Both the position numbers and the translations under genes were made by a program. A model generated the notes under the pieces. The model was not told where the DNA came from. It searched no databases and was given only the letters and a program-made list of their open reading frames with translations. Positions 5,457 to 62,190 of a stretch of 64,000 nucleotides of DNA are shown here, piece by piece. Each line of letters starts with the position of its first letter. The stretch's first letter is position 1. This DNA is from Eubacteriales bacterium (GTDB lineage: Bacteria; Bacillota; Clostridia; Oscillospirales; CAG-272), in NCBI GenBank assembly GCA_045586845.1, contig JAZNBB010000058.1:6532-70531 (forward strand), given 5' to 3'.

Positions 5457-6311
5457 TCAGCCTTCCTGCTCAATGCGAGACAGCGTCACAACAACCAGCT
5501 CGGGTCTGTTGTTGAAGCGCAGAGGGAATGAGCTCGCGCCAATACCGCGGCTGACCACCATATTTGCATTCTCGTGGGTGTAAACGCCACTGTCGTACTC
5601 GGGAAGTACGCCTTGTCCCGGTGCATAAAGACCGCCGATCAGCGGCAGACGGAATTGTCCTCCGTGCGCGTGACCCGAAAGAGTCAGATCGATCTGTGCC
5701 TCGGCATAACGCCAAAAATATTCCGGGCGGTGCGAGAGAAGCACGGTAAATCCGTCCGTACCCGCGAGTTCACGCAGTTGCTCCGGCGAATGTAAAACGC
5801 CTTCGTAGTTCTCATCATCCACGCCAAGCAGCGTCATGTGTGCATCGCCACGTGCGATTGTGACTGCCTCGGCGTGCAGAATGTCAACGCCGATCTCGCG
5901 CATCTGTGCTTCGAACTCATAATAATCCGATCGGGGAAGTGCACATTCATGATTGCCCGTCACCATATAGCAGGGTGCGATCTGTACGCAGGCTTGTAAC
6001 AGCTCAAGCACTACGGGCACGTTCGGGTTGCGCGCGTCGATCGTGTCTCCCGTGAACACGATGATATCGGGCTGCGCTTCTGACAGCATGGAAAGCAGCT
6101 TTTGGTTGTCCTTGTCGTATTCCGCACAGTGCAGATCGGCAACCTGTGCTATGCGAAATCCATCAAATTCCTGTGGAAGACGCGTGCTTGCGACGGTATA
6201 GTCGGTACGCTCGAGCGCTGTGTTTGCCCAGATCACCCAACCGCCAAAGGCGAGCGATGCAGCGATCAGGATACACAGCGCCGAGAGCGCAATTATCTTT
6301 TTGTCCGTCAT
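5457..6311 (-). CDS. membrane-anchored metallophosphoesterase (calcineurin-like, YkuE-like)
   Basis: An N-terminal TM helix is followed by the motifs DLH, GDTID, GNHE and GHAHGG. The start overlaps the glnA stop by 1 nt (TAATG). Confidence 0.75.
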   Translation of the reverse strand: MTDKKIIALSALCILIAASLAFGGWVIWANTALERTDYTVASTRLPQEFDGFRIAQVADLHCAEYDKDNQKLLSMLSEAQPDIIVFTGDTIDARNPNVPVVLELLQACVQIAPCYMVTGNHECALPRSDYYEFEAQMREIGVDILHAEAVTIARGDAHMTLLGVDDENYEGVLHSPEQLRELAGTDGFTVLLSHRPEYFWRYAEAQIDLTLSGHAHGGQFRLPLIGGLYAPGQGVLPEYDSGVYTHENANMVVSRGIGASSFPLRFNNRPELVVVTLSRIEQEG

Positions 6312-7735
6312 TACAGGTTGTAGTATTTTTCAAACTCAGCGGGATGAGGAATTGCTGCCATAGCTCTGCATTCCTCGCGCTTTGTCTTAATAAAATTGTT
6401 GATGAGCTCAATGGGGAACACGCCGCCTGCAGTCAGGTAGTCGTGGTCAGCCTCCAGCGCGTCAAGTGCCTCGGGCAGCGAGGTGGGCAAATGGCGCAGC
6501 TTTGCCTTTTCCTCGTCGGAAAGATGATAGAGGTTGACGTCGTAAGGACCCCAACCATTTTTGTGCGGGTCTATCTTGTTTTTGATGCCGTCCAATCCTG
6601 CCATCAGGATAGCGGCATAGCAGAAATATGGGTTGCAGGTCGCATCGGGATTGCGCAGCTCAAAGCGACGCTTGTCGGGCGACTTTGCATAAGCGGGGAT
6701 GCGAATGACTGCAGAGCGGTTGGAGGTAGCATAGCCCACCGTAACAGGTGCCTCAAAGCCGGGTACCAGACGCTTGAACGAGTTGGTGCTGGGATTGGTC
6801 AGCGCGCAAAGGGAAGCGATGTGCGAAAGAATGCCGCCCATGAAGTAGTGCGCGGTCTCACTCAGATGTGCGTAGCCGTTATCATCTGCGAAAATGGGCT
6901 GCCCGTCCTTAAACAGCAGCATATGCACATGCATACCGCTGCCTGCCTCACCTGCAATGGGCTTGGGCATAAAGGTGGCGGATTTGCCGTATTTGAGCGC
7001 GGTGTTATGAATGATATACTTGATCATCATGGTTGCATCCGCCATGTGCACCACCTCGCCAAGCTGCGGTTCGATCTCAAACTGACCGGATGCTGCCACT
7101 TCGGGGTGATGATAGTTGATCTCAATCCCCGCGTCCAGCATATGCATACACATTTCGCTTCTTGCTTCATACGAACGGTCAAAGGGCTTGGCAATATGGT
7201 AAGCTTTCTGCTTGGGAACGATCACGCCGTGTCCCTGGCTGTCGCTGTTCCAGTAGGATTGCTCTGCGTCCACGTGTGCTCCGATATAATTGGGGGAGAC
7301 CTCCCAGCCCACGTTGTCAAACAGATAGAACTCAAACTCGGGCAGGATCTTCATGGTGTCGGCAACACCGCACGCACGCATATAAGCAACAGCCGCCTTG
7401 ATGATATTTCTGGGGTACTGTGCAAGCGGCTTGTTTTCCGGGCTGGCAATGATCATAGCGTCGCCGGTCATGGTCAGCGTGGGAATATCGCAGAAGGGGT
7501 CGATCTGTGCGGTGTTCGGATCGGGAATAAACACCATGTCGCTCTTTTCCACTACAGCGTAGCCGTAGTTGGAGGCATCAAATCCAATGCCGCTTTTCAT
7601 GGTATCCTCTGTAAAGTTCCGGGCGGGAATGGTGACATGGCGGTATTGACCGTTGATATCCACCATTTTGAAATCCACCATTTTGATGCCGTGCTCACGG
7701 ATCATGCTCATGATATCCTGTACGCTTTTTGCCAT
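6311..7735 (-). CDS. glnA: glutamine synthetase, type I
   Basis: 474 aa with a typical GS N-terminal beta-grasp and catalytic-domain blocks (KPIAGEAGSGMHVHM, NPYF). RBS aaaggag. Confidence 0.9.
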   Translation of the reverse strand: MAKSVQDIMSMIREHGIKMVDFKMVDINGQYRHVTIPARNFTEDTMKSGIGFDASNYGYAVVEKSDMVFIPDPNTAQIDPFCDIPTLTMTGDAMIIASPENKPLAQYPRNIIKAAVAYMRACGVADTMKILPEFEFYLFDNVGWEVSPNYIGAHVDAEQSYWNSDSQGHGVIVPKQKAYHIAKPFDRSYEARSEMCMHMLDAGIEINYHHPEVAASGQFEIEPQLGEVVHMADATMMIKYIIHNTALKYGKSATFMPKPIAGEAGSGMHVHMLLFKDGQPIFADDNGYAHLSETAHYFMGGILSHIASLCALTNPSTNSFKRLVPGFEAPVTVGYATSNRSAVIRIPAYAKSPDKRRFELRNPDATCNPYFCYAAILMAGLDGIKNKIDPHKNGWGPYDVNLYHLSDEEKAKLRHLPTSLPEALDALEADHDYLTAGGVFPIELINNFIKTKREECRAMAAIPHPAEFEKYYNL

Positions 7736-13175: not shown

Positions 13176-13204
13176 GTAGGGACCGGCGTCCTCGACGGTC
13201 CTAC
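13176..13204. repeat. GTAG-headed palindromic unit (type A, loop GCGTCCTCGA)
   Basis: GTAGGGACCG-GCGTCCTCGA-CGGTCCTAC, located between the GNAT-like gene and the carrier protein gene. Confidence 0.7.
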
Positions 13205-14233: not shown

Positions 14234-14785
14234 ATGACTGAATTTCTTGCAATGCTTGAATCCGTTTCGCCGATCTTAGTCTGCTTTCTGATCTGTGCCG
14301 CAAAGATCCTGGAGATCACCATTCAATCGCTCAAAACCTGCATGATGGTCAAGGGGCAGCGGCTCAAAGCCGCAGGCTTGGGCTTTGTGGAGTGCATCAT
14401 CTGGGGTCTGGTGGTGTCGGGTGTCATCGGCACGCTGGGCGATAACCCCTTGCGCCTGGTCTTTTACTGCGCGGGCTACGCCGCGGGTCTGTCCCTCGGC
14501 TCTACCATTGAGGGCAAGATCGCGCTCGGCACGTCCAACTTAGAGCTGATCGCAAGCGACGAGAGCACCGAGAAGATCACGGCTTACTTAAAAGAGAACG
14601 ATCTTGGCTATACCGTCCTGCCCGGACACGGCGCAACCGAGAAGATGAATATGATCTTTATCGTGCTGCCCAGAAAGCGTACCAAGCGCGTGCTTGGCGA
14701 GATCCGTAAGTGTTGCGATAATAAGGTCTTTGTAGTCGCATCCGAGGTCAGCAAGTATGCCGGCGGCTACGGTATGGTGAAGTAA
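14234..14785 (+). CDS. UPF0316/DUF2179 family membrane protein
   Basis: Three N-terminal TM helices are followed by a C-terminal soluble domain. The overall pattern resembles the YebE/UPF0316 family. Confidence 0.6.
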   Translation: MTEFLAMLESVSPILVCFLICAAKILEITIQSLKTCMMVKGQRLKAAGLGFVECIIWGLVVSGVIGTLGDNPLRLVFYCAGYAAGLSLGSTIEGKIALGTSNLELIASDESTEKITAYLKENDLGYTVLPGHGATEKMNMIFIVLPRKRTKRVLGEIRKCCDNKVFVVASEVSKYAGGYGMVK

Positions 14786-14805
14786 AAGCGCAGCTTTTTA
14801 CAACT

Positions 14806-15004
14806 GCGGCTGTGCCGCAATATCATATTTGTAGGGACAGGCGTCCTCGACTGTCCGTTTCTGCAATACCACTATGACCACAGGTCACAATATCACTTTG
14901 TTATCCGTAGGGGCGACCATCGGTCGTCCGCTATCGCGGCGGCAGCAAGCCACCGCCCTACGACGTGGCTCGATGCGTACGGGCGATCATTGATCGCCCG
15001 CCCC
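14806..15004. repeat. array of short palindromic units (GTAG-headed and hairpin+AATATCA[CT] types)
   Basis: The units, in order:
- GCGGC-tgt-GCCGC followed by AATATCAT, 14806-14826.
- GTAGGGACAG-GCGTCCTCGA-CTGTCC, 14831-14856.
- AATACCAC, 14865-14872.
- TGACC-aca-GGTCA followed by CAATATCAC, 14875-14896.
- GTAGGGGCGACC-atc-GGTCGTCC, 14907-14933.
- A reverse-orientation unit ending CACCGCCCTAC, 14937-14960.
- GTACGGGCGATCA-t-TGATCGCCC, 14978-15004. Confidence 0.75.
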
Positions 15005-15035
15005 TTCGGATAAAATCTACCGAAAGGAGAGCACT

Positions 15036-15626
15036 ATGGCTAATAAGAAAAACAAGAAAAAGCAGCGACTTTTTTCGCTCACGTGGAAATTCTGGCTGGG
15101 GTTTATTATTGTGCAACTGTGCTATTTGACAGTGTGTTCTAACGCGGTATATTCGGAGTGGCCGTGTAATGACAGAAATACGCAAACTGTTATTGGAGAA
15201 GTAGAGAATATCAGGGATGTAAGCACAGGCTTCAGAATTTATCGCGGTCACGGTTCGAAAGGTTACCTGGAGATTACCGTGAACGGGCAACCGTACCGCT
15301 TGTACGTTCAAAGCAATCAAAAGGAAATGAGCACTTCCGATGTTAAAGATAATCTTGCTATCGGTGATAGCGTAGAGATCGCGTACAAGGCACAAATTCG
15401 TATGTTCAAAGAATGCAGCGTTGTGGTCGGCATGAAAGATGACACGCAGACCTACCGTACGATAGAGGCTTATAACGCCAATGCCCGCGTGCTTTTGCCC
15501 GTATTCTCGGTATTGATGCTGGTCGCCGAGGCACTGTTGTGCCTGCCGCTTTACGCAGAATATTTGCTCAGGTTGATCGTGCTCGTCAGAACCCGAAAAA
15601 CGGAATGCGAAAAGAAAAAGAAATAG
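15036..15626 (+). CDS. hypothetical membrane protein
   Basis: Has a lysine-rich N-terminus, one N-terminal and one C-terminal hydrophobic segment, RBS gaaaggag and a terminator downstream. I recognise no motif. Confidence 0.45.
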   Translation: MANKKNKKKQRLFSLTWKFWLGFIIVQLCYLTVCSNAVYSEWPCNDRNTQTVIGEVENIRDVSTGFRIYRGHGSKGYLEITVNGQPYRLYVQSNQKEMSTSDVKDNLAIGDSVEIAYKAQIRMFKECSVVVGMKDDTQTYRTIEAYNANARVLLPVFSVLMLVAEALLCLPLYAEYLLRLIVLVRTRKTECEKKKK

Positions 15627-15639
15627 ACCAAACGAAAAA

Positions 15640-15671
15640 CCAACGCTTATGACACGTAGGCGTTGGTTTTT
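15640..15671 (+). terminator. rho-independent terminator
   Basis: CCAACGC-(loop)-GCGTTGG followed by TTTTT. Confidence 0.65.
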
Positions 15672-20699: not shown

Positions 20700-21659
20700 A
20701 TGGTAGATAAGGATTACGTTTGCGAGGATTGGGGTGAGACTACCCAATGGACGCAGATTCGCGTCACGGTCAAGCTTGAGCAGTTAGACGCGCTTGTCGC
20801 GGTTATGAGTATGATCAATAACAATCTCATGATCGAGGATTACAGCGACATCGATCTCAAGACCTGCTACGGCGACCTGATAGACGAGAGCATTCTCAAC
20901 GCGGATAAGACCATCGCGTCTGTGTCGGTTTACTTACCCGTGGAGCGTGATATCCGTGAGGACGTGGAGTTTTTGCGCGAAATGCTTGCAAAGGACGGCA
21001 TTGAGGGCGAAATCAAGATGATCGGTCTTAATGAAGAGGACTGGGCAAACGCATGGAAGGCGTATTATAAGCCGATCAAGATCGGCTCCAAGATCGTCAT
21101 CGTGCCCGCTTGGGAAAAGTATGAGGCTGCAGAGGGTGAATTGATTGTGCGTATGGATCCCGGTATGGCGTTCGGAACGGGCACGCACGAGACCACCAGA
21201 TTGGTTATCGGTCTTTTGGAAAAGTATACCACCCCCGGCGTGCGTATGTTGGACGTGGGTACGGGCAGCGGTATTCTTGCCATCTGTGCCTCCCGTTTGG
21301 GTGCAGGGGAGTGTAAGGCGTACGATATCGATCCCATGTCGGTGCGCGTGGCACGCGAGAACATCAAGGATTCTGGTCTCGACAATATCACCTGTGACCA
21401 ATCCGACCTGTTGCGCTCGGTGGATATTGCGGGCGGCAAATACGGACTTGTGTGTGCCAATATCGTAGCGGACATCATCATTCGCATGACGCCCGACGTG
21501 CATAAGTACATTGCAAAGGACGGCGTGCTGTTGGCTTCGGGTATCATTATGGAACGCAGTCAAGATGTGGTTAATTGCTTTGAAGCACACGGCTTTGAGA
21601 TCGTTGAGCGCGCCGAGGAAAACGGTTGGTGCGCACTCGCGGTCAAATTAAGAAAATGA
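20700..21659 (+). CDS. prmA: ribosomal protein L11 methyltransferase PrmA
   Basis: Shows the SAM-binding block LDVGTGSGILAI and the FGTGTHETT motif, and occupies the conserved position after dnaJ. Confidence 0.85.
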   Translation: MVDKDYVCEDWGETTQWTQIRVTVKLEQLDALVAVMSMINNNLMIEDYSDIDLKTCYGDLIDESILNADKTIASVSVYLPVERDIREDVEFLREMLAKDGIEGEIKMIGLNEEDWANAWKAYYKPIKIGSKIVIVPAWEKYEAAEGELIVRMDPGMAFGTGTHETTRLVIGLLEKYTTPGVRMLDVGTGSGILAICASRLGAGECKAYDIDPMSVRVARENIKDSGLDNITCDQSDLLRSVDIAGGKYGLVCANIVADIIIRMTPDVHKYIAKDGVLLASGIIMERSQDVVNCFEAHGFEIVERAEENGWCALAVKLRK

Positions 21660-22201: not shown

Positions 22202-22266
22202 ATATAGAGTTGCAACAAAAAGCATACAAGTAGGGGCGTTTAAATAACGCCGCAACGGATACAAAA

Positions 22267-27671: not shown

Positions 27672-30011
27672 ATGAACATGAAAAGAAATGCATTCATATT
27701 ATTTGCTCTGCTATTGGCAATCACTATGCTGTTTGCTGCGTGCGATCAAGGCGAAGGTCAAGAAGAAATTACCAATGAAGTGATTGTTGGTGGTGACATC
27801 GTTACCGAGGAAGATGCCACAACGGATAATGGCGAAAACGCTGAGCCTGATGCGACAACTGAAGATCCCAACCAGCCGCACGAGCACGCATTTGGCGAGT
27901 GGACAACGGTCAAGGCGGCAACCTGCACGCAGGCAGGTAAGCAAGAGCGCATTTGTTCATGTGGCAAAAAAGAAAAAATGACTCTTGATGCACTCGGTCA
28001 TGCCGAAGTGATTGATGCGGCGGTAGAACCGACGTGCTCTGAGCAGGGATTAACAGAAGGCAAACATTGCGCTAATTGTGATACGGTATTTGTGGCGCAG
28101 GAGGTAATGCCTGCAACGGGAGAGCATGTGTATGTTAATGAAGTATGTCAGGGTTGCTCGGCGAAACTGCAATACAGTGAAGGCTTGGTGTTTGTATCAA
28201 ATGGTGATGGCACTTGTTACGTCAGTGATATTGGTTCCTGTACAGATACGGATATTGTGATTCCGAAACGTTCTCCTCTTGGCGATAGCGTGACGAGCAT
28301 TGGATCTTTGGCGTTCGATAACTGCGTTGGAATGGTAAGCATCACTATCCCTGATAGCGTGACAAGTATTGGCACTCAAGCATTCTACAATTGTACCGGC
28401 TTGAAGCGTATAACTATTCCGGATAGTGTGACAAGCATTGGCTGGAGTGCATTTTCTGACTGTACCGGTTTGACGCGTATTACCATTCCGGATAGCGTGG
28501 TAGACATTAATACCGGTGCATTCTCCAACTGCACCGGCTTAACGAGCGCTATCATTGGCGACAGCGTGATAAGTATTGGTATTGATGCATTCTGGCATTG
28601 CCGCAGCTTGACGAGCATTACGATTCCGGATAGCGTGACGAGCATTGGCAATAGCGCGTTCGGTGGCTGCACCGGCTTGATGAGTATTACCATTGGTGAT
28701 AGCGTGACGAGCATTGGCAATAGAGCGTTCGAAGGATGCACCGGTTTGACGCGTATTACCATTCCGGATGGTGTGACGAGCATAGGATATTCTGCGTTCG
28801 AAGGATGCACCGGCTTGACGAGCATTACTATTCCGGATAGCGTAACGAGCATTGCTTGTCCGGATAGCATGACAATTGTTGGCGATGGGGTGTTCTCAGG
28901 TTGCACCAGGTTGACAAGCTTAATTGTTTCGGAAGGAAACACTACTTATCACAGCGCAGGGAATTGCATTATTGAAACGGAAAGCAAAACCTTGGTTGCC
29001 GGATGCAATACGAGCATTATTCCTGCGGACGGTAGTGTGACAAGCATTGGTGCATTTGCGTTCTCCGGCTGCGAGGGTTTGACAAGTGTTACCATTCCGG
29101 ATGGCGTGACAAGCATTGGCATTAAAGCGTTCTCTATCTGCAAAGGCTTGACAAGTGTTACCATTCCGGATAGTGTGACAAGTATTGATACTCGTGCGTT
29201 CGATTTCTGCACAGGATTGACGAGCATTGCCATTCCGGATAGTGTGACAAGCCTTGGAGCATTTGTGTTCGAAGGGAGTTATGACCTCATTCGAAAAGAG
29301 CAGGGCGTTAGCTATGTGGATGGTTGGGTGGTGGATTGCGACTCTAATGTTACAACAGTTGACTTAACTGGCACGAGAGGCATAGCTGCATCAGCGTTTT
29401 ATGGGTGCAACTTGACGAGTATTGCTATTCCGGATAGTGTGATAAGCATTGGTGATAGGGCGTTTGAACGTTGTACAGGCATGACGAGTGTTACCATTGG
29501 AAACGGTGTGACAATGATTGGCGAGTATGCGTTCTCCGACTGTACCGAATTGACGAGTGTTACCATTGGAAACGGTGTGACAATGATTGGCAAGTATGCG
29601 TTCTCCGACTGTACCGGCTTGACGAACATCACGATTTCGGATAGCGTGGCAAGCATTGGTGATTCAGCGTTCAAGGGGTGCACAAATATGACGAGTATTA
29701 CTATTCCGGGCAATGTGACAAGTATCGGTGATTGGGCGTTTAAAGGTTGCACAAGTATGACGAGTGCTACCATTGGAAACGGTGTGACAATGATTGGCAA
29801 GTTTGCGTTCTCCGACTGTACCGGCTTGACGAACATCACGATTTCGGATAGCGTGACAAACATTGGATTTGCTGCGTTTTCTGACTGCACCGCCTTGACC
29901 GACGTGTATTTCACCGGTACCGAGCAAGAATGGGCTGCAATTGAGCTTGGAGACTTCAACGACGCTCTTTCAACCGCCACCATCCACTACAACTACGTTC
30001 CCGAAGAATAA
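27672..30011 (+). CDS. surface lipoprotein with BspA-type leucine-rich repeats
   Basis: A signal peptide with lipobox LFAAC is followed by a Cys-rich segment. Then come about 25 repeats of about 23 aa of the form ITIPDSVTSIGxxAFxxCTGLTS. Confidence 0.8.
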   Translation: MNMKRNAFILFALLLAITMLFAACDQGEGQEEITNEVIVGGDIVTEEDATTDNGENAEPDATTEDPNQPHEHAFGEWTTVKAATCTQAGKQERICSCGKKEKMTLDALGHAEVIDAAVEPTCSEQGLTEGKHCANCDTVFVAQEVMPATGEHVYVNEVCQGCSAKLQYSEGLVFVSNGDGTCYVSDIGSCTDTDIVIPKRSPLGDSVTSIGSLAFDNCVGMVSITIPDSVTSIGTQAFYNCTGLKRITIPDSVTSIGWSAFSDCTGLTRITIPDSVVDINTGAFSNCTGLTSAIIGDSVISIGIDAFWHCRSLTSITIPDSVTSIGNSAFGGCTGLMSITIGDSVTSIGNRAFEGCTGLTRITIPDGVTSIGYSAFEGCTGLTSITIPDSVTSIACPDSMTIVGDGVFSGCTRLTSLIVSEGNTTYHSAGNCIIETESKTLVAGCNTSIIPADGSVTSIGAFAFSGCEGLTSVTIPDGVTSIGIKAFSICKGLTSVTIPDSVTSIDTRAFDFCTGLTSIAIPDSVTSLGAFVFEGSYDLIRKEQGVSYVDGWVVDCDSNVTTVDLTGTRGIAASAFYGCNLTSIAIPDSVISIGDRAFERCTGMTSVTIGNGVTMIGEYAFSDCTELTSVTIGNGVTMIGKYAFSDCTGLTNITISDSVASIGDSAFKGCTNMTSITIPGNVTSIGDWAFKGCTSMTSATIGNGVTMIGKFAFSDCTGLTNITISDSVTNIGFAAFSDCTALTDVYFTGTEQEWAAIELGDFNDALSTATIHYNYVPEE
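29482..29856 (+). repeat. near-identical in-frame DNA repeats inside the LRR gene (69-bp tandem; 207-bp displaced copy)
   Basis: Three copies starting at 29482, 29551 and 29758 share tgacgagtg(t/c)taccattggaaacggtgtgacaatgattggc(a/g)agt(a/t)tgcgttctccgactgtacc. Copies 2 and 3 continue identically through ggcttgacgaacatcacgatttcggatagcgtg. Confidence 0.8.
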
Positions 30012-30130: not shown

Positions 30131-30154
30131 CGGGCGATCACAGATCGCCCCTAC
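30131..30154. repeat. GTAG-headed palindromic unit (type B), reverse orientation
   Basis: CGGGCGATCACAGATCGCCCCTAC is the exact reverse complement of the unit at 30205-30228. Confidence 0.8.
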
Positions 30155-30204
30155 AACAGCTTTTGTTTTGGGCTTTATCTCGTAAAATCCATACAGAATT
30201 TCCC

Positions 30205-30228
30205 GTAGGGGCGATCTGTGATCGCCCG
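30205..30228. repeat. GTAG-headed palindromic unit (type B), forward orientation
   Basis: GTAGGGGCGATCTGTGATCGCCCG forms a perfect 24-bp inverted doublet with 30131-30154, separated by a 50-bp spacer. Confidence 0.8.
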
Positions 30229-39053: not shown

Positions 39054-39129
39054 TTTAATCTTGAACCAAGGCACCAAGGGCGGTGGCTTGCTGACGCCGC
39101 GCCAATCAGACCGCTTGCCGAAAATACAG

Positions 39130-50629: not shown

Positions 50630-50878
50630 TCAGTCGCAAACGTAGGGCAGAAGAGCAGCCTGACGAGCACGCTTGATAGCGGTGTTGAGCTCGCGTTGGT
50701 GAACGGCACAGGTGCCGGACATTCTTCTGGGCAGGATCTTGCCGCGCTCGCTGATGAACTTGCGAAGCTTAGCGGAATCCTTGTAATCGATATATGCAAC
50801 CTTATCGGCGCAGAAAATGCAAACCTTCTTTCTTCTGCGAACCACGGGGCGCGCAGGACGAGAAACGTTTTCAGTCAT
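50630..50878 (-). CDS. rpsR: 30S ribosomal protein S18
   Basis: [15 protein letters not shown]...[15 protein letters not shown]...QR is the S18 signature. Confidence 0.92.
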
Positions 50879-50916
50879 CTTATGAATCCTCCTGTTTGAT
50901 TTTGGGAACGATCGGC

Positions 50917-51387
50917 TCAGAAGGGCAGATCGTCGTCTGTTTTGATCTCCTCGAACTTAGGCGCAGAGCCTGCGGGGGAGGAGTAAGCGGGTGCACCGTA
51001 AGCATCGGGTGCATAACCGCCTGCCTGTGCATTGGGACCTTCGCTGCGGCTGTCCACAAACTGGACTTCTTCAGCGACGATGTCGGTCATGTAGCGCTTC
51101 TGCCCCTGTTGGTCGGTCCAGGATCTGTTCTGGATAGAGCCGATCACACAGATGGAAGAGCCTTTCTTAAAGAAACGGTTGACAAACTCAGCAGTAGAAC
51201 GCCAAGCGGTAACGGTAAAGAAATCGACCTCAGGTTGCTGACCGGACGCTGCGTCACGGGAAGCGAATCTGCGATTGACAGCCATACGGAACGTTACAAC
51301 GGCAATGCCGCTCTGTGTCTGCTTCAGTTCAGGATCAGCGGTCAATCTGCCGCCGAGGATGACTTTGTTCAGATTAAAATTTGCCAT
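50917..51387 (-). CDS. ssb: single-stranded DNA-binding protein
   Basis: N-terminal OB fold ([16 protein letters not shown]), a Gly/Pro/Ala-rich linker and the acidic tip DDDLPF. Confidence 0.92.
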
Positions 51388-51411
51388 GTTCTTTTGACCT
51401 CTTTGTGCGCC

Positions 51412-51822
51412 TTACTCAGCGTCAGCTGCCACTTCGGCAACTTCGGTAGCTACAGCAGCTTCAACAACTTCGGTGGCTACAGCAGCTTCGTCAACTTCGG
51501 TGGCGACAGCAGCCTTAGCAACGGGCTCGAAGTCCAGCTTGATGGTCAGAGAACGCATAATGTTCTCGTCGATCTGGAACAGACGGTCGAGCTCGGAAAG
51601 GAAGTTACCTGCAGCCTTGAAGGTCACGACTACGTAGTAGCCTTCGGGCATGTCATTGATAGGATATGCCAGGCGGCGCTTGCCCCACTGTGCAACCTCA
51701 ATGATAGTGCCGTTGTCAGCAATCAAAGAAGTGAACTTGTTCACAGTTGCATTGGTTGCTTCCTCACCGTTGGTCACGTCAACGATGAACAGACTTTCAT
51801 AAGAATTGAGTACCTTTTCCAT
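51412..51822 (-). CDS. rpsF: 30S ribosomal protein S6 with repeat-containing acidic C-terminal extension
   Basis: S6 core (YESLFIV..., WGKRRLAYPI) sits in the rpsF-ssb-rpsR order. There are about 40 extra C-terminal residues containing three AAVATEV(D/V/A)E repeats. Confidence 0.85.
   Translation of the reverse strand: MEKVLNSYESLFIVDVTNGEEATNATVNKFTSLIADNGTIIEVAQWGKRRLAYPINDMPEGYYVVVTFKAAGNFLSELDRLFQIDENIMRSLTIKLDFEPVAKAAVATEVDEAAVATEVVEAAVATEVAEVAADAE
51441..51521. repeat. three 27-bp tandem repeats within the rpsF 3' end
   Basis: Three tandem units of cttcggt(a/g)gc(t/g)acagcagc... start at 51441, 51468 and 51495. Confidence 0.75.
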
Positions 51823-52057
51823 GTGTTTTTACCTCCCTATGGACTTTAATTAGACCGCGCCACCTCTTCAATATTATTTGTGCGCGGTAGAGAGACGAAC
51901 TGCTTTGCAGTCCGCATCGAGGATATATTATACCACAAACAGGAAGTCTTGTCAATCCTTTTTGTAATATTATTTTTTACAAAAAATCACAAAATTCTTG
52001 CCAAAACCATGGAAAATATGATATAATTACATATAGTAAATTGTAATGGAGGTTACT

Positions 52058-55992: not shown

Positions 55993-56069
55993 GGGCTATT
56001 AGCTCAGTTGGTCAGAGCTACCGGCTCATAACCGGTTGGTCCGGGGTTCGAGTCCCTGATAGCCCACCA
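55993..56069 (+). tRNA. tRNA with anticodon CAT (elongator Met or lysidine-modified Ile2), CCA encoded
   Basis: The sequence is GGGCTATTAGCTCAGTTGGTCAGAGCTACCGGCTCATAACCGGTTGGTCCGGGGTTCGAGTCCCTGATAGCCCACCA. G1-C72 are paired, so it is not an initiator. The anticodon arm CCGGCTCATAACCGG resembles tRNA-Ile2 genes, but I cannot decide from sequence alone. Confidence 0.9.
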
Positions 56070-56072
56070 AAA

Positions 56073-56110
56073 AGAGCAAGGGGGTGCTTGTGCACCCCCT
56101 TGCTCTTTTT
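56073..56110 (+). terminator. rho-independent terminator after the tRNA
   Basis: AGAGCAAGGGGGTGC-ttg-TGCACCCCCTTGCTCT followed by TTTT. Confidence 0.8.
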
Positions 56111-56120
56111 GGTGTACTTT

Positions 56121-56422
56121 CCCGACTCAGAACCCCGCACGCGCGGCTTTGCCGCTCGTGCAAGGTTTGCGCCGGAAAAGTGAAGAAATATCACGACTAT
56201 TGGCGCAAACATGGGTTCTGAGTCCCTGGTGTCCCATTCAGACGCCTATCCCAATTCGCCCCACGCGCGGCTTTGCCGCTCGTGCAAGGTTTGCGCCGGA
56301 AAAGTAAACGGTAAGGGCGTGCGATTGCGCAAATGTGCAAGCGCGATGCGCTTGCGATGTTCTGAATCCCTGGTGTCCCATTCAGACGACTATCCCGATT
56401 CACCCGCACGCGCGGCTTTGCC
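56121..56422. repeat. tandem repeat (about 144 bp period) containing tRNA 3'-end-like blocks
   Basis: Block A, GTTCTGA(G/A)TCCCTGGTGTCCCATTCAGACG(C/A)CTATCCC(A/G)ATTC, occurs at 56215 and 56359. Block B, C(G)CACGCGCGGCTTTGCCGCTCGTGCAAGGTTTGCGCCGGAAAAGT, occurs at 56133 and 56259, with a truncated copy at 56401-56422. Confidence 0.8.
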
Positions 56423-56471
56423 GAAAGACTCTTTCACCCGCGTTGGCACAGGCTGAGCAACCCGTCTTTTT

Positions 56472-56497
56472 GTAGGGGACGACGTCCTCGACGTCCC
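56472..56497. repeat. GTAG-headed palindromic unit (type A), forward
   Basis: GTAGGGGACG-ACGTCCTCGA-CGTCCC. Confidence 0.75.
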
Positions 56498-56548
56498 GAG
56501 CAGGTGCAATGAACTTGTAACATTGTAAAAAAATTGTTTATGCAGGAC

Positions 56549-56574
56549 GGTGCGTCGAGGACGTCGCACCCTAC
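56549..56574. repeat. GTAG-headed palindromic unit (type A), reverse
   Basis: GGTGCG-TCGAGGACGT-CGCACCCTAC; its reverse complement is GTAGGGTGCG-ACGTCCTCGA-CGCACC. It forms an inverted doublet with 56472-56497, separated by a 51-bp spacer. Confidence 0.75.
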
Positions 56575-62083: not shown

Positions 62084-62093
62084 TAAATCTAAC

Positions 62094-62122
62094 GTAGGGG
62101 CGACCATCGGTCGTCTGCCTAC
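62094..62122. repeat. GTAG-headed palindromic unit (type B)
   Basis: GTAGGGGCGACC-atc-GGTCGTCTGCCTAC is nearly identical to the unit at 14907-14933. Confidence 0.75.
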
Positions 62123-62164
62123 ATCGCTGCCACCTGTAAGGTTATCCGTCCAACAACAACTCTT

Positions 62165-62190
62165 GTAGGGACCGGCGTCCCCGACGGTCC
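62165..62190. repeat. GTAG-headed palindromic unit (type A)
   Basis: GTAGGGACCG-GCGTCCCCGA-CGGTCC has the same stem as the unit at 13176, with one loop change. Confidence 0.75.

What the first reader, a model, noticed from the sequence alone, without database searches (positions are those of the whole stretch)
14786..15035. Dense mosaic array of at least six palindromic units in one 250-bp spacer
The intergenic region between the UPF0316 gene and an orphan membrane-protein gene is almost entirely made of repeat units in both orientations. It holds two hairpin+AATATCA(C/T) units, one type A and two type B GTAG units, and one reversed unit ending CCCTAC. This resembles the mosaic REP clusters (BIMEs) of enterobacteria, which bind proteins such as IHF and gyrase and stabilise upstream mRNAs. 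The downstream gene (15036-15626) has no recognisable homology and looks AT-richer by eye. The array may therefore mark an insertion boundary.
Basis: seen in the sequence. Interest (0 to 1): 0.55.

Follow-up and report, generated by a model that had tools for sequence, protein, structure and literature searches.

The report
REP hairpin cluster in a gut Clostridium
The 250-base spacer is a young, fast-changing pile-up of small mobile DNA hairpins of the REP type already known from E. coli and Pseudomonas, here in an uncultured gut Clostridia lineage where such elements are common but little described.

Summary
The six hairpins are at the stated coordinates, and the spacer folds far better than shuffles (z -5.9).

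Four of them are true repeat-family members: type A, type B, a reversed type C, and a second B-like unit tagged GTAC rather than GTAG. They are about 25-nt stem-loops with a 5' GTAG tag. Nine further copies lie in the window, all extragenic.

Type A occurs across Oscillospirales genomes, with a conserved loop and a covarying stem. Types B and C also recur in the Oscillospirales loci fetched with the type A pattern.

The two hairpin+AATATCAY "units" are not dispersed repeats. They are locus-specific spacer sequence shared with relatives.

Orthologous spacers in relatives with 86-94% identical UPF0316 protein carry 0, 1, 2 or 3 units of differing types. Relatives at 81% or less carry none, so the array is young and dynamic.

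RAYT (TnpA_REP)-like Y1 transposases of the same clade carry identical units inside their own genes. This feature is already published for TnpA_REP subclass 2.4. No such gene lies in the window.

The array is a REP cluster, not a BIME in the strict sense. It sits at a junction where the downstream gene differs between relatives. That "orphan" gene does have a homologue.

Verdict: new member of a known kind, of moderate interest.

The parts
14234..14785 (+). Upstream gene, UPF0316 family (DUF5698 + DUF2179)
   Evidence: Pfam hits. Homologues at 66-95% identity were used to fetch the orthologous spacers.
14789..14808 (.). Weak hairpin (CGCAG..CTGCG) in the stop-proximal spacer. It is ancestral sequence, not a dispersed repeat.
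   Evidence: Fold z -1.5. The same segment is present in L005 (AAGTTCAGCTTTTACATCTGCG).
14805..14826 (+). Hairpin h1 (TGCGGC tgt GCCGCA) overlapping box 1, CAATATCAT. Locus-specific, not a repeat-family member.
   Evidence: Fold z -2.9. The box is conserved in L001, L127, L133 and L005, but the h1 stem is not. No match elsewhere. It overlaps a promoter-like site, TTTACA-18-TATCAT at 14797-14826.
14831..14856 (+). REP unit type A: GTAG + GGACAG / G.A mismatch / CG-tcct-CG / CTGTCC
   Evidence: Fold z -4.3. Copies at 13176, 56472, 56549(-) and 62165. More than 120 genome stretches hold the family. Stem covariation. The site is empty in L126, and an orthologous copy is present in L127/L133.
14875..14896 (+). 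Hairpin h2 (TGACC aca GGTCA) plus box 2, CAATATCAC. Locus-specific.
   Evidence: Fold z -2.0. GGTCA(C/T)AATATCAC is shared with L005. No match elsewhere.
14907..14929 (+). REP unit type B: GTAG + GGGCGACC atc GGTCGTCC, with a G.T wobble on the GTAG strand
   Evidence: 96% identical copy at 62093-62118. The B family (GTAGGGGCGA..) occurs in many Oscillospirales loci. RNA fold is -13.8 on the GTAG strand against -8.9 on the other.
14936..14961 (-). REP unit type C in reverse orientation; on the - strand it reads GTAGGGCGGTGGCTTGCTGCCGCCGC
   Evidence: 96% complementary copy at 39077-39101. The family with the GGCTTGC loop occurs in L006, L026, L053, L083, L090 and L097. Orthologous copies in L001, L131, L132 and L180.
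14977..15000 (+). B-like unit with a degenerate tag: GTAC + CGGGCGATCA t TGATCGCCCG
   Evidence: Perfect 10-bp stem (I5). Fold z -4.8. 81-88% similar to the B' units at 30131/30205.
14901..15013 (.). 15-nt inverted repeat (TTATCCGTAGGGGCG / CGCCCCTTCGGATAA) bracketing units B, C and the GTAC unit
   Evidence: I1: 93% complementary. Its meaning is unresolved; the bracketed composite does not recur elsewhere.
15023..15029 (+). Ribosome-binding site AAAGGAG, 6 nt before the ATG
   Evidence: Read from the sequence. The same GAAAGGAG context precedes the downstream gene in L001, L127 and L131.
15036..15626 (+). Downstream 196-aa predicted membrane protein (the 'orphan')
   Evidence: No Pfam hit. 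45%-identical syntenic homologue in L127, also in L133. GC 45.5%, GC3 55.8%.
15635..15671 (+). Intrinsic-terminator-like hairpin after the downstream gene, homologous to the terminator that directly follows the spacer in L005 and L126
   Evidence: compare CCAACGC..GCGTTGG with L005, L126 and L127.
13176..13204 (.). Other window copy: type A 'double-foot' unit (GTAG...CTAC) between the GNAT-like and ACP genes
22230..22253 (+). Other window copy: B-variant unit GTAGGGGCGTTtaaatAACGCCGC
30131..30228 (.). Other window copies: perfect inverted pair of B' units, GTAG ends facing inwards, 50 nt apart, between convergent genes
   Evidence: (I13).
39077..39101 (+). Other window copy: type C unit lacking the GTAG tag (CAAG instead)
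   Evidence: (I12).
56472..56574 (.). Other window copies: two type A units in inverted orientation, GTAG ends outwards, with different covarying stems (GACG/CGTC and TGCG/CGCA)
62094..62190 (+). Other window copies: type B then type A, both forward, 48 nt apart

Best explanation
The spacer is a cluster of four GTAG-tagged REP elements from three families, A, B and C. The families are spread across Oscillospirales genomes. The units have accreted recently onto an older, locus-specific spacer that contains the two AATATCAY boxes.

Each unit is a roughly 25-nt non-autonomous element. As single-stranded DNA it folds into a G+C-rich stem-loop with a 5' (pyrimidine)GTAG foot. The proposed mechanism is as follows. 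A RAYT/TnpA_REP-type HUH-Y1 enzyme encoded elsewhere in the genome recognises the hairpin plus tag, cuts it and copies it into extragenic DNA, often beside an existing unit. This would explain why mixed clusters form.

Shown here:
- Family membership and stem covariation.
- Extragenic location.
- Presence/absence and turnover between close relatives.
- RAYT-like enzymes in the same clade that carry the very same units.

Inferred:
- That such an enzyme exists in this genome and mobilises these units.
- Any host-level role. Once transcribed, the hairpins could buffer the 3' end of the UPF0316 message or the 5' leader of the downstream gene, but nothing here requires that.
For: Families in the window:
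- GTAGGGRC occurs 8 times against 1.85 expected.
- 13 units lie in 7 spacers, all outside genes, although about 90% of the window is coding.

Families in the clade:
Almost all are Acutalibacteraceae, Oscillospiraceae or Ruminococcaceae.
- 136 of 149 hits have the unselected complementary outer stem. The 13 without it include every stemless hit listed, all from unrelated high-GC taxa.
- At least 14 complementary stem versions surround the fixed loop G(G/A)CGTCC(T/C)CGAC.
- 92% of cells are paired. There are 58 double-sided changes against 16.9 +/- 3.3 in shuffles (0 of 500), and slid controls pair only 26-51%.
- The B and C families recur in the same loci, and mixed clusters occur elsewhere, for example L026.

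Other properties:
- Type A units lie deep inside long open frames in 32% of cases, against 83% for random positions.
- The base before GTAG is a pyrimidine in 259 of 275 units.
- Wobble pairs favour the GTAG strand, 17 to 6 (p 0.035). In the window this holds whatever the direction of transcription.

Turnover in orthologous spacers:
- 94% identity: 0 units, an empty site for A.
- 93%: B*, C.
- 92%: B*, B, C.
- 90%: box, B**, C; or box, A.
- 86%: box, A; or two boxes with 0 units.
- About 40 loci at 81% or less: 0 units.

Enzyme:
- 171-173-aa ORFs in L027, L008 and L035 match NCBIfam REP_Tyr_transpos at 61-66 bits, against 18 bits for IS200. L045, L086 and L088 hold tblastn relatives of these ORFs.
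- The best PDB match by sequence is 4er8. A pLDDT-80 model has 4er8_A as its top fold hit, E 1.5e-7.
- The L027 and L035 genes contain type A or B-like units in frame.
- One MAG has the same 27-mer inside its RAYT-like gene and in an unrelated spacer.
Against: - No RAYT-like gene lies in the 64-kb window (tblastn). The rest of this genome could not be reached, so the enzyme link is clade-level only.
- The RAYT-like proteins score below the NCBIfam equivalog cut-off (66 against 80 bits).
- The genome-wide copy number for this organism is unknown.
- B and C alone fold only marginally better than shuffles.
- The fourth unit has GTAC instead of GTAG.
- The wobble asymmetry rests on few and partly related units.
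- No transposition event has been observed. Differences between relatives could partly reflect deletion or recombination rather than insertion.
Confidence: 0.8

Rival explanations
1. The hairpins are mainly host RNA elements. Transcribed with UPF0316, they would act as 3'-end stabilisers, partial terminators or insulators between UPF0316 and the downstream gene. Their repetition would reflect selection for that role rather than mobility.
For: - The units lie downstream of a gene, in the same orientation as the next one.
- Stable RNA hairpins of -11 to -18 kcal/mol form on the transcribed strand.
- G.U-type wobbles occur in B units on the + strand.
- The literature assigns such roles to REPs (PMC3733652).
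Against: - No T-tract follows any unit, and the scan found no + strand terminator in the spacer.
- The reversed C unit folds better on the non-transcribed strand.
- Close relatives manage with 0-3 units of different types in front of the same genes.
- Identical units sit at unrelated loci in other genomes.
- This reading is compatible with the REP explanation as a secondary effect. As the primary cause it does not explain the GTAG tag or the copies inside RAYT-like genes.
Confidence: 0.12
2. The units are recombination junctions of a cassette-like variable site. The array would mark, and perhaps mediate, exchange of the gene downstream of UPF0316.
For: - At least five different downstream contents occur among relatives with 86-94% identical UPF0316.
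- The module [units + 196-aa gene] lies between a shared stop-proximal segment and a shared terminator.
- Units also follow the 277-aa alternative gene.
- Assemblies break in or at the array (L130, L132).
Against: - The same unit families occur in many spacers with conserved synteny, for example GNAT-ACP at 13176.
- Relatives at 81% identity or less show synteny loss without any units.
- No recombinase is nearby, and there are no conserved cassette boundaries.
- GC3 of the downstream gene is ordinary.
Confidence: 0.05
3. The spacer is a structured cis-regulatory leader (riboswitch or attenuator) of the downstream membrane-protein gene.
For: A strongly folding 250-nt region lies directly upstream of an RBS and ATG.
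Against: - No Rfam match even at E <= 1.
- The homologous gene in L127/L133 has an 82-nt leader with a single unit.
- The structured parts are dispersed repeats found at unrelated genes.
Confidence: 0.02
4. The B plus reversed-C pair is the remnant of a decayed RAYT-like gene. Such genes carry a forward and a reversed unit.
For: RAYT-like genes contain a GTAG-outward inverted pair of units.
Against: - In the genes the two units are about 150 nt apart and of the same variant. Here they are 6 nt apart and of different families.
- tblastn with two RAYT-like proteins finds nothing in the window.
Confidence: 0.01

Closest known systems
GTAG-tagged REP superfamily (Di Nocera, De Gregorio and Rocco 2013, PMC3733652)
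   Same: - 20-40-nt palindromes with an unpaired GTAG at one end.
- Stems of 6-13 bp with complementary variation, and internal mismatches in some families.
- Singles, head-head and tail-tail dimers, and mixed clusters.
- Mainly extragenic and downstream of genes.
- Several families per genome.
   Different: That survey (more than 80 species, 8 phyla) never mentions Firmicutes or Clostridia in its text. The A, B and C consensus sequences were not found in the searchable literature. Here the tag extends to (Y)GTAGGG, and the loop of family A is a conserved 12-mer.
REPs of TnpA_REP subclass 2.4 (Quentin et al. 2018, PMC6006769)
   Same: - 'Canonical long' REPs whose stem foot is three G-C pairs, as in GTAG-GGG...CCC here.
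- 'Double-foot' units GT[AG]G...C[TC]AC, as at window 13176-13204.
- REPs inserted in frame inside the tnpA_REP gene, in a variable loop after the HuH motif.
   Different: - Subclass 2.4 is reported as abundant in Cyanobacteria and Bacteroidetes, and the paper assigns no Clostridia to it.
- The Oscillospirales genes have a second fixed site before HuH.
- The two sites hold an inverted pair of the same variant, and in-frame tandem arrays occur.
- Subclass assignment of these proteins was not tested phylogenetically.
E. coli REP / BIME
   Same: GTAG-headed imperfect palindromes, clustered in both orientations in spacers between genes. The cognate enzyme TnpA_REP (PDB 4er8) is the best structural match of the clade's RAYT-like protein.
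   Different: - BIMEs alternate two REP types in strictly inverted orientation, with defined linker motifs, and bind IHF or gyrase.
- Here the orientations are + + - +, the gaps are irregular, there is no recurrent linker, and three unrelated families are mixed.
- The host is a Firmicute. From general knowledge these use HU rather than IHF.
REPIN-RAYT systems of Pseudomonas (Bertels and Rainey 2011, PMC3116915; Bertels et al. 2017, PMC5581495)
   Same: Non-autonomous hairpin elements presumed to be mobilised in trans by a domesticated Y1 transposase. Inverted REP pairs exist in the window (30131/30205, 56472/56549). Group 1 RAYTs are reported in Clostridia.
   Different: The array studied here is not a symmetric doublet with a conserved spacer. 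Its inverted neighbours (B and C) belong to different families. Single units, not doublets, are what recur between genomes.

Membership tests
REP elements, GTAG superfamily | Short (20-40 nt) imperfect palindrome able to form a stem-loop | tested here: met
   Units are 23-26 nt. Stems are 8-10 bp with at most one mismatch.
REP elements, GTAG superfamily | Unpaired GTAG (or a near variant) at one end | tested here: met
   A, B and C carry GTAG; the fourth unit has GTAC. Across related loci the tag is (Y)GTAGGG.
REP elements, GTAG superfamily | Dispersed multi-copy family within a genome | tested here: inconclusive
   13 units lie in the 64-kb window. The families are abundant across the clade.
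REP elements, GTAG superfamily | Extragenic location | tested here: met
   All 13 window units are outside genes. Type A units are depleted from long open frames, 32% against 83%.
REP elements, GTAG superfamily | Stem maintained by compensatory change among copies | tested here: met
   58 double-sided cells against 16.9 in shuffles (0 of 500). 92% of cells are paired, against 26-51% in slid controls.
REP elements, GTAG superfamily | Cognate RAYT/TnpA_REP gene in the same genome | not testable with these tools
   None in the window, and the genome is not retrievable. In the clade, RAYT-like genes carry the same units. One MAG shows the same unit both in its gene and in a spacer.
BIME (bacterial interspersed mosaic element) | REPs of two types alternating in inverted orientation with regular spacing and conserved linker motifs | tested here: not met
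   Orientation is + + - +, with gaps of 50, 6 and 15 nt. No composite or linker recurs elsewhere.
BIME (bacterial interspersed mosaic element) | Binding of IHF or DNA gyrase | not testable with these tools
REPIN | Two copies of the same REP in inverted orientation with a conserved spacer, together forming a long hairpin that recurs as a unit | tested here: not met
   B and reversed C belong to different families. Only single units recur. True inverted same-type pairs exist elsewhere in the window (30131/30205, 56472/56549).
TnpA_REP (RAYT) family, for the clade's 165-175-aa proteins | HUH and catalytic Y motifs, class-2 Y---N(P) signature, TnpA_REP fold | tested here: met
   - MPNHIHL and Y(I/V)xxN motifs.
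- NF047646 at 61-66 bits, below the 80-bit equivalog cut-off.
- Pfam Y1_Tnp at 26-29 bits, above its cut-off.
- Top sequence and fold hit is 4er8.
Known structured RNA (Rfam) | Match to a curated covariance model | tested here: not met
   No hit in 14650-15150 at E <= 1. Only two tRNAs in the whole window.
Intrinsic terminator | G+C-rich hairpin followed by a T-run on the transcribed strand | tested here: not met
   No + strand site inside the spacer. The real terminator-like site is at 15635-15671.

The most novel reading that the evidence does not exclude
The Oscillospirales GTAG hairpins and their RAYT-like genes form an active, co-evolving system. Each transposase gene keeps an in-frame inverted pair, sometimes whole tandem arrays, of its own cognate REP in two fixed surface loops. 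These internal copies would serve as master copies or as self-recognition sites. New copies would insert preferentially next to existing ones. That would produce mixed clusters like this spacer and make such spacers hot spots where neighbouring genes are swapped. If so, gut Clostridia would hold one of the largest and most diverse REP-RAYT radiations, with a built-in record of which enzyme moves which hairpin.
Probability: 0.25. Interest if true: 0.6.

Novelty: new member of a known kind. Interest (0 to 1): 0.4.

Why it matters
REP elements and their RAYT enzymes have been studied almost entirely in Proteobacteria. This window shows that an uncultured gut Clostridia lineage, and Oscillospirales generally, carry several abundant GTAG-REP families.

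These families turn over between close relatives. They break metagenome assemblies and generate spurious "hypothetical protein" calls, because the hairpins are open in several reading frames.

The units are also written into the RAYT-like genes themselves. The peptide pairs at the two insertion sites may therefore allow enzyme-to-hairpin assignment from sequence alone. That would make questions about REP-RAYT specificity and co-evolution testable in a very large, natural data set.

For this particular spacer the practical message is modest. It is an ordinary REP cluster at a variable gene junction, not a new regulatory device.

Tried and rejected
- Exact-protein look-ups for window genes and for the 100%-identical hit P0001 found nothing on record. 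The rest of the genome, and hence its RAYT content and REP copy number, stayed out of reach. The listing of cluster members gave no accession.
- tblastn with two RAYT-like proteins found no homologue in the window.
- Rfam found no family in the spacer at gathering level or at E <= 1.
- I tested whether the AATATCAY box is a general REP-associated motif. Apart from the orthologous locus, only single chance-level cases turned up (L108, L026), so the idea was rejected.
- I tested whether a 5' TATCC flank belongs to B units. It is not general; only a pyrimidine at -1/-2 is.
- I tested whether the array or the B-C pair is a composite mobile element (MITE or REPIN). blastn finds only single-unit matches.
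- I first took the REPs inside RAYT-like genes to be undescribed. Reading Quentin et al. 2018 showed the phenomenon is published for subclass 2.4.
- Two literature searches were swamped by microbiome papers and author names and gave nothing. A search for the type A loop sequence found only unrelated primers.
- The MAFFT alignment of the orthologous spacers was poor because of the mosaic structure. The block comparison was made by eye.
- Tandem Repeats Finder saw nothing in the repeat region after tRNA-Met.
Full report
**What is in the sequence.** The spacer 14786-15035 lies between a UPF0316-family gene (14234-14785; DUF5698 + DUF2179) and a 196-aa ORF with no Pfam match (15036-15626). hrcA, grpE and dnaK follow.

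- h1, 14805-19, then AATATCAT.
- Type A, 14831-56.
- h2, 14875-87, then CAATATCAC.
- Type B, 14907-29.
- A reversed unit ending CCCTAC, 14936-61, here called type C.
- A second B-like unit, 14977-15000, whose tag is GTAC rather than GTAG.

As single-stranded DNA the spacer folds at -58.5 kcal/mol, against -36.6 +/- 3.7 for shuffles (z -5.9). Folded alone, A and the GTAC unit are clearly non-random (z -4.3 and -4.8). B, C, h1 and h2 are only marginal. Together the units cover a little over half of the spacer.

**The GTAG units are members of dispersed families.**
- GTAGGGRC occurs 8 times in the window against 1.85 expected.
- Repeat finding and a hairpin scan give nine further units:
  - A at 13176, 56472, 56549(-) and 62165.
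  - B at 62094, 96% identical.
  - B' at 30131(-) and 30205, a perfect inverted pair.
  - A B variant at 22230.
  - C at 39077, 96% identical but lacking the tag.
- All 13 units lie outside genes, although about 90% of the window is coding.

Nearly all are Acutalibacteraceae, Oscillospiraceae or Ruminococcaceae, including Gemmiger formicilis ATCC 27749 and Ruminococcus flavefaciens ATCC 19208.

The pattern did not constrain the 3' half of the outer stem. Even so, 136 of 149 hits have the complementary stem. Among the hits listed, those without it all come from unrelated high-GC taxa.

The family A consensus is GTAG-GG-NNN-G / (G or A opposite A) / CG-TCCT-CG / C-N'N'N'-CC, with at least 14 complementary stem versions. 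Formally, 92% of cells pair. There are 58 double-sided changes against 16.9 +/- 3.3 in shuffles (0 of 500), and slid controls pair only 26-51%.

The same 0.95 Mb of loci hold many B-type units (GTAGGGGCGA...TCGCCC) and C-type units (loop GGCTTGC). They also hold other mixed clusters, for example five units in 300 nt in L026.

Further properties:
- Type A units are depleted from long open frames, 32% against 83% for random positions.
- The base before GTAG is a pyrimidine in 259 of 275 units.
- Single mismatches are more often G.T on the GTAG strand than A.C, 17 to 6 (p 0.035).
- In the window, B and C fold better on the GTAG-bearing strand whichever way transcription runs. This weakly favours a single-stranded-DNA substrate over an mRNA role.

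**The two hairpin+AATATCAY units are something else.** CAATATCAY is not clearly enriched, at 4 occurrences against 1.2 expected. The two other sites show no such unit; the one I read, at 21383, is in coding sequence. blastn of the spacer against all fetched DNA matches only segments A (14828-60), B (14906-28) and C (14935-63).

The box itself is conserved in orthologous spacers: once in L001, L127 and L133, and twice, 25 nt apart, in L005, which has no GTAG unit at all. I read the boxes and the first 45 or so nt after the stop codon as older, locus-specific spacer onto which the REPs were added.

Their function is unknown. Box 1 coincides with a promoter-like site, TTTACA-18-TATCAT. A test for a general association of the box with GTAG units was negative.

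**Orthologous spacers.** The window's own genome is not in the exact-match index. Homologues of UPF0316 gave loci from relatives. Ordered by protein identity to the window:

| Locus | Identity | Content after UPF0316 |
|---|---|---|
| L126 | 94% | No unit. An empty site where A sits in the window, then a terminator. |
| L131 | 93% | B*, reversed C, then a 277-aa gene. |
| L132 | 92% | As L131, with a 4-nt deletion in C, then the window's GACGTGGCTCGATG-like sequence before the contig ends. |
| L180 | 92% | B*, an extra canonical B, and C. |
| L001-4 | 90% | Box, a different B variant, C, and a 274-aa gene. |
| L133 | 90% | Box, a type A unit with the window's ACAG/CTGT stem, and a homologue of the 196-aa gene. 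|
| L127 | 86% | As L133. |
| L005 | 86% | Two boxes, no unit, a terminator and a convergent EF-G-like gene. |
| L189 | 89% | No unit. |
| About 40 loci | 81% or less | No unit and no synteny. |

At one and the same position after ...TTTTATGCTC, L127 has an A unit and L001 a B-type unit. The window's array of four units is the largest seen. Two assemblies end in or just before the array (L130, L132).

**The downstream gene and the "insertion boundary".** The 196-aa protein is not an orphan. L127 and L133 encode a syntenic homologue, 45% identical against 86-90% for UPF0316, so it evolves fast.

Its GC is low, at 45.5%; only 2 of 49 ORFs are lower. Its GC3 of 55.8% is within one standard deviation of the window's genes. 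Composition therefore gives no clear sign of foreign origin.

The terminator after it (15635-71) is homologous to the one that follows the spacer directly in L005 and L126. The module [units + gene] is therefore a presence/absence difference between shared flanks. A 274-277-aa gene occupies the place in other relatives and shows no detectable similarity to the 196-aa protein (BLASTP E 0.33). The array thus sits at a junction of variable gene content. Whether the units cause that variability is not shown.

**The likely enzyme.** A motif screen of ORFs in the fetched loci, followed by Pfam, found 160-173-aa Y1/HUH proteins in L027 (two tandem paralogues) and L008. tblastn with the L027 pair added L035, L045, L086 and L088.
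- For the three ORFs tested (the L027 pair and L008), NCBIfam REP_Tyr_transpos scores 61-66 bits. This is below its 80-bit equivalog cut-off but far above IS200 at 18 bits.
- The best PDB match by sequence is E. coli TnpA_REP, 4er8.
- A pLDDT-80 model has 4er8_A as its top fold match (E 1.5e-7, TM 0.56-0.58).

These genes contain the REP units in frame. In L027 a forward type A unit encodes VGTGVLDCP. About 150 nt later a reversed unit encodes GPSGTPVPT. The paralogue has a B-like pair at the same two places, in a different reading frame. In an AT-rich genome the units stand out as G+C-rich islands inside the gene.

The family is large: 21,461 clusters at 50% identity with E <= 1e-3. Among 146 representatives:
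- 91 have a VG...P peptide at site 1.
- 82 have a G...P(T/Y/L/S) peptide at site 2.
- 63 have both.
- Some have neither.
- Up to seven in-frame tandem copies occur.

Within a protein the site-2 peptide is the reverse-complement reading of the site-1 peptide. Compatibility of 0.85 or more is seen in 47% of proteins, against 6% when sites are paired across proteins. Both sites map to loops of the model. One MAG has the same 27-mer inside its RAYT-like gene and in an unrelated spacer on another contig.

I first thought this undescribed. Quentin et al. 2018 (PMC6006769) report in-frame REP insertions inside tnpA_REP genes as the hallmark of their subclass 2.4. That subclass also has REPs with three G-C pairs at the stem foot and "double-foot" GT[AG]G...C[TC]AC units. 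The Oscillospirales elements fit this description, and window 13176-13204 is a double-foot unit.

No RAYT-like gene lies in the window. The link to this genome is therefore an inference.

**Comparison with known systems.** The units meet the testable criteria of the GTAG-REP superfamily of Di Nocera et al. 2013 (PMC3733652): size, tag, stem-loop with complementary variation, extragenic location, dimers and clusters.

They do not meet the definition of a BIME, which requires alternating inverted REP types, regular spacing and conserved linkers. Nor do they meet that of a REPIN, because B and C are different families and only single units recur.

The Di Nocera paper does not mention Firmicutes or Clostridia. 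Bertels et al. 2017 note only that Group 1 RAYTs occur in Clostridia. Only two papers in the held library combine REPINs, RAYTs and Clostridia, and neither describes these families.

**Mechanism and rivals.** The best-supported reading is a cluster of non-autonomous REP hairpins, copied by a RAYT-type enzyme acting on single-stranded DNA and accumulating beside earlier copies. The in-frame tandem arrays inside RAYT-like genes show that copies can pile up next to each other.
- A primary role as transcript stabilisers or terminators is possible as a by-product. However, there are no T-tracts, the strand preference is wrong for unit C, and unit content varies freely between relatives.
- A riboswitch-like leader is excluded by Rfam and by the short leader of the homologous gene.
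- A decayed RAYT gene is excluded by spacing, by family mismatch and by tblastn.

**Verdict.** The BIME label and the "no homology" remark are not. The finding is a new member of a known kind, a REP cluster in an Oscillospirales genome, at a variable gene junction. Interest is moderate. The specific spacer is ordinary for its clade. The clade-wide REP/RAYT radiation, with enzyme genes that carry their own hairpins, deserves a dedicated study.

**Limits.** There is no access to the rest of this genome and there are no expression data. Relatives are mostly short metagenome contigs. The type A survey is capped at 120 stretches. Subclass assignment of the enzymes was not tested by phylogeny.

Noticed in passing
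L027:5009-5524(-) and 6101-6622(-); also L008, L035, L045, L086, L088: RAYT (TnpA_REP)-like genes carry the clade's GTAG units in frame at two fixed loop sites, as an inverted pair of the same variant. Some family members hold tandem arrays of up to seven copies. In-frame REPs inside tnpA_REP genes are already published for subclass 2.4 (PMC6006769). The second site before HuH, the inverted-pair rule and the arrays may be additions.
   Followed up: partly
window 14818-14826 and 14888-14896; L005:6583-6616; L001:6564-6572; L127:1399-1407; L131:1558-1567: A CAATATCA(C/T) box is conserved in the orthologous spacers of relatives: twice in L005, which has no REP units, and after the alternative 277-aa gene in L131/L180. 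Its function is unknown. Box 1 overlaps a promoter-like TTTACA-18-TATCAT.
   Followed up: partly
window 13176-13204: A 'double-foot' type A unit (GTAG...CTAC at both ends) lies between the GNAT-like gene and the acyl-carrier-protein gene. The same spacer in L001 holds a different A variant. In L005 that spacer is only 14 nt long, leaving no room for a unit.
   Followed up: partly
window 30131-30228: A perfect 24-nt inverted pair of B' units, with GTAG ends facing inwards and 50 nt apart, lies between two convergent genes.
   Followed up: no
window 56092-56460: Downstream of tRNA-Met (55993-56069) lie direct repeats of about 50 nt at 124-145-nt spacing. Among them are two copies of a segment resembling a tRNA 3' end (GTTCTGAGTCCCTGGTGTCCCATTCAGA). 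These may be remnants of integration sites. Tandem Repeats Finder reported nothing.
   Followed up: no
window 28241-29896: Eleven or more copies of a 69-nt (23-codon) repeat lie inside the 779-aa ORF 27672-30011, a repeat-rich protein.
   Followed up: no
window 51423-51522: A 9-nt periodic repeat lies inside the ORF 50794-51849.
   Followed up: no
L130:917-929; L132:1524-1613: Metagenome contigs of close relatives end 13 nt after the UPF0316 stop or in the middle of the array. This suggests that these repeats break short-read assemblies.
   Followed up: no
L035:6850-6880: In an AT-rich Clostridium MAG the RAYT-like gene has a TAA within the reversed unit at site 2 that appears to be in frame, so this copy may be a pseudogene. 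The G+C-rich units contrast sharply with the surrounding AT-rich coding sequence.
   Followed up: no
window 14901-14915 and 14999-15013: A 15-nt inverted repeat (93% complementary) brackets units B, C and the GTAC unit. The right arm reads GAAG where the left reads GTAG. This may be a local inverted duplication. The bracketed composite does not recur elsewhere.
   Followed up: partly
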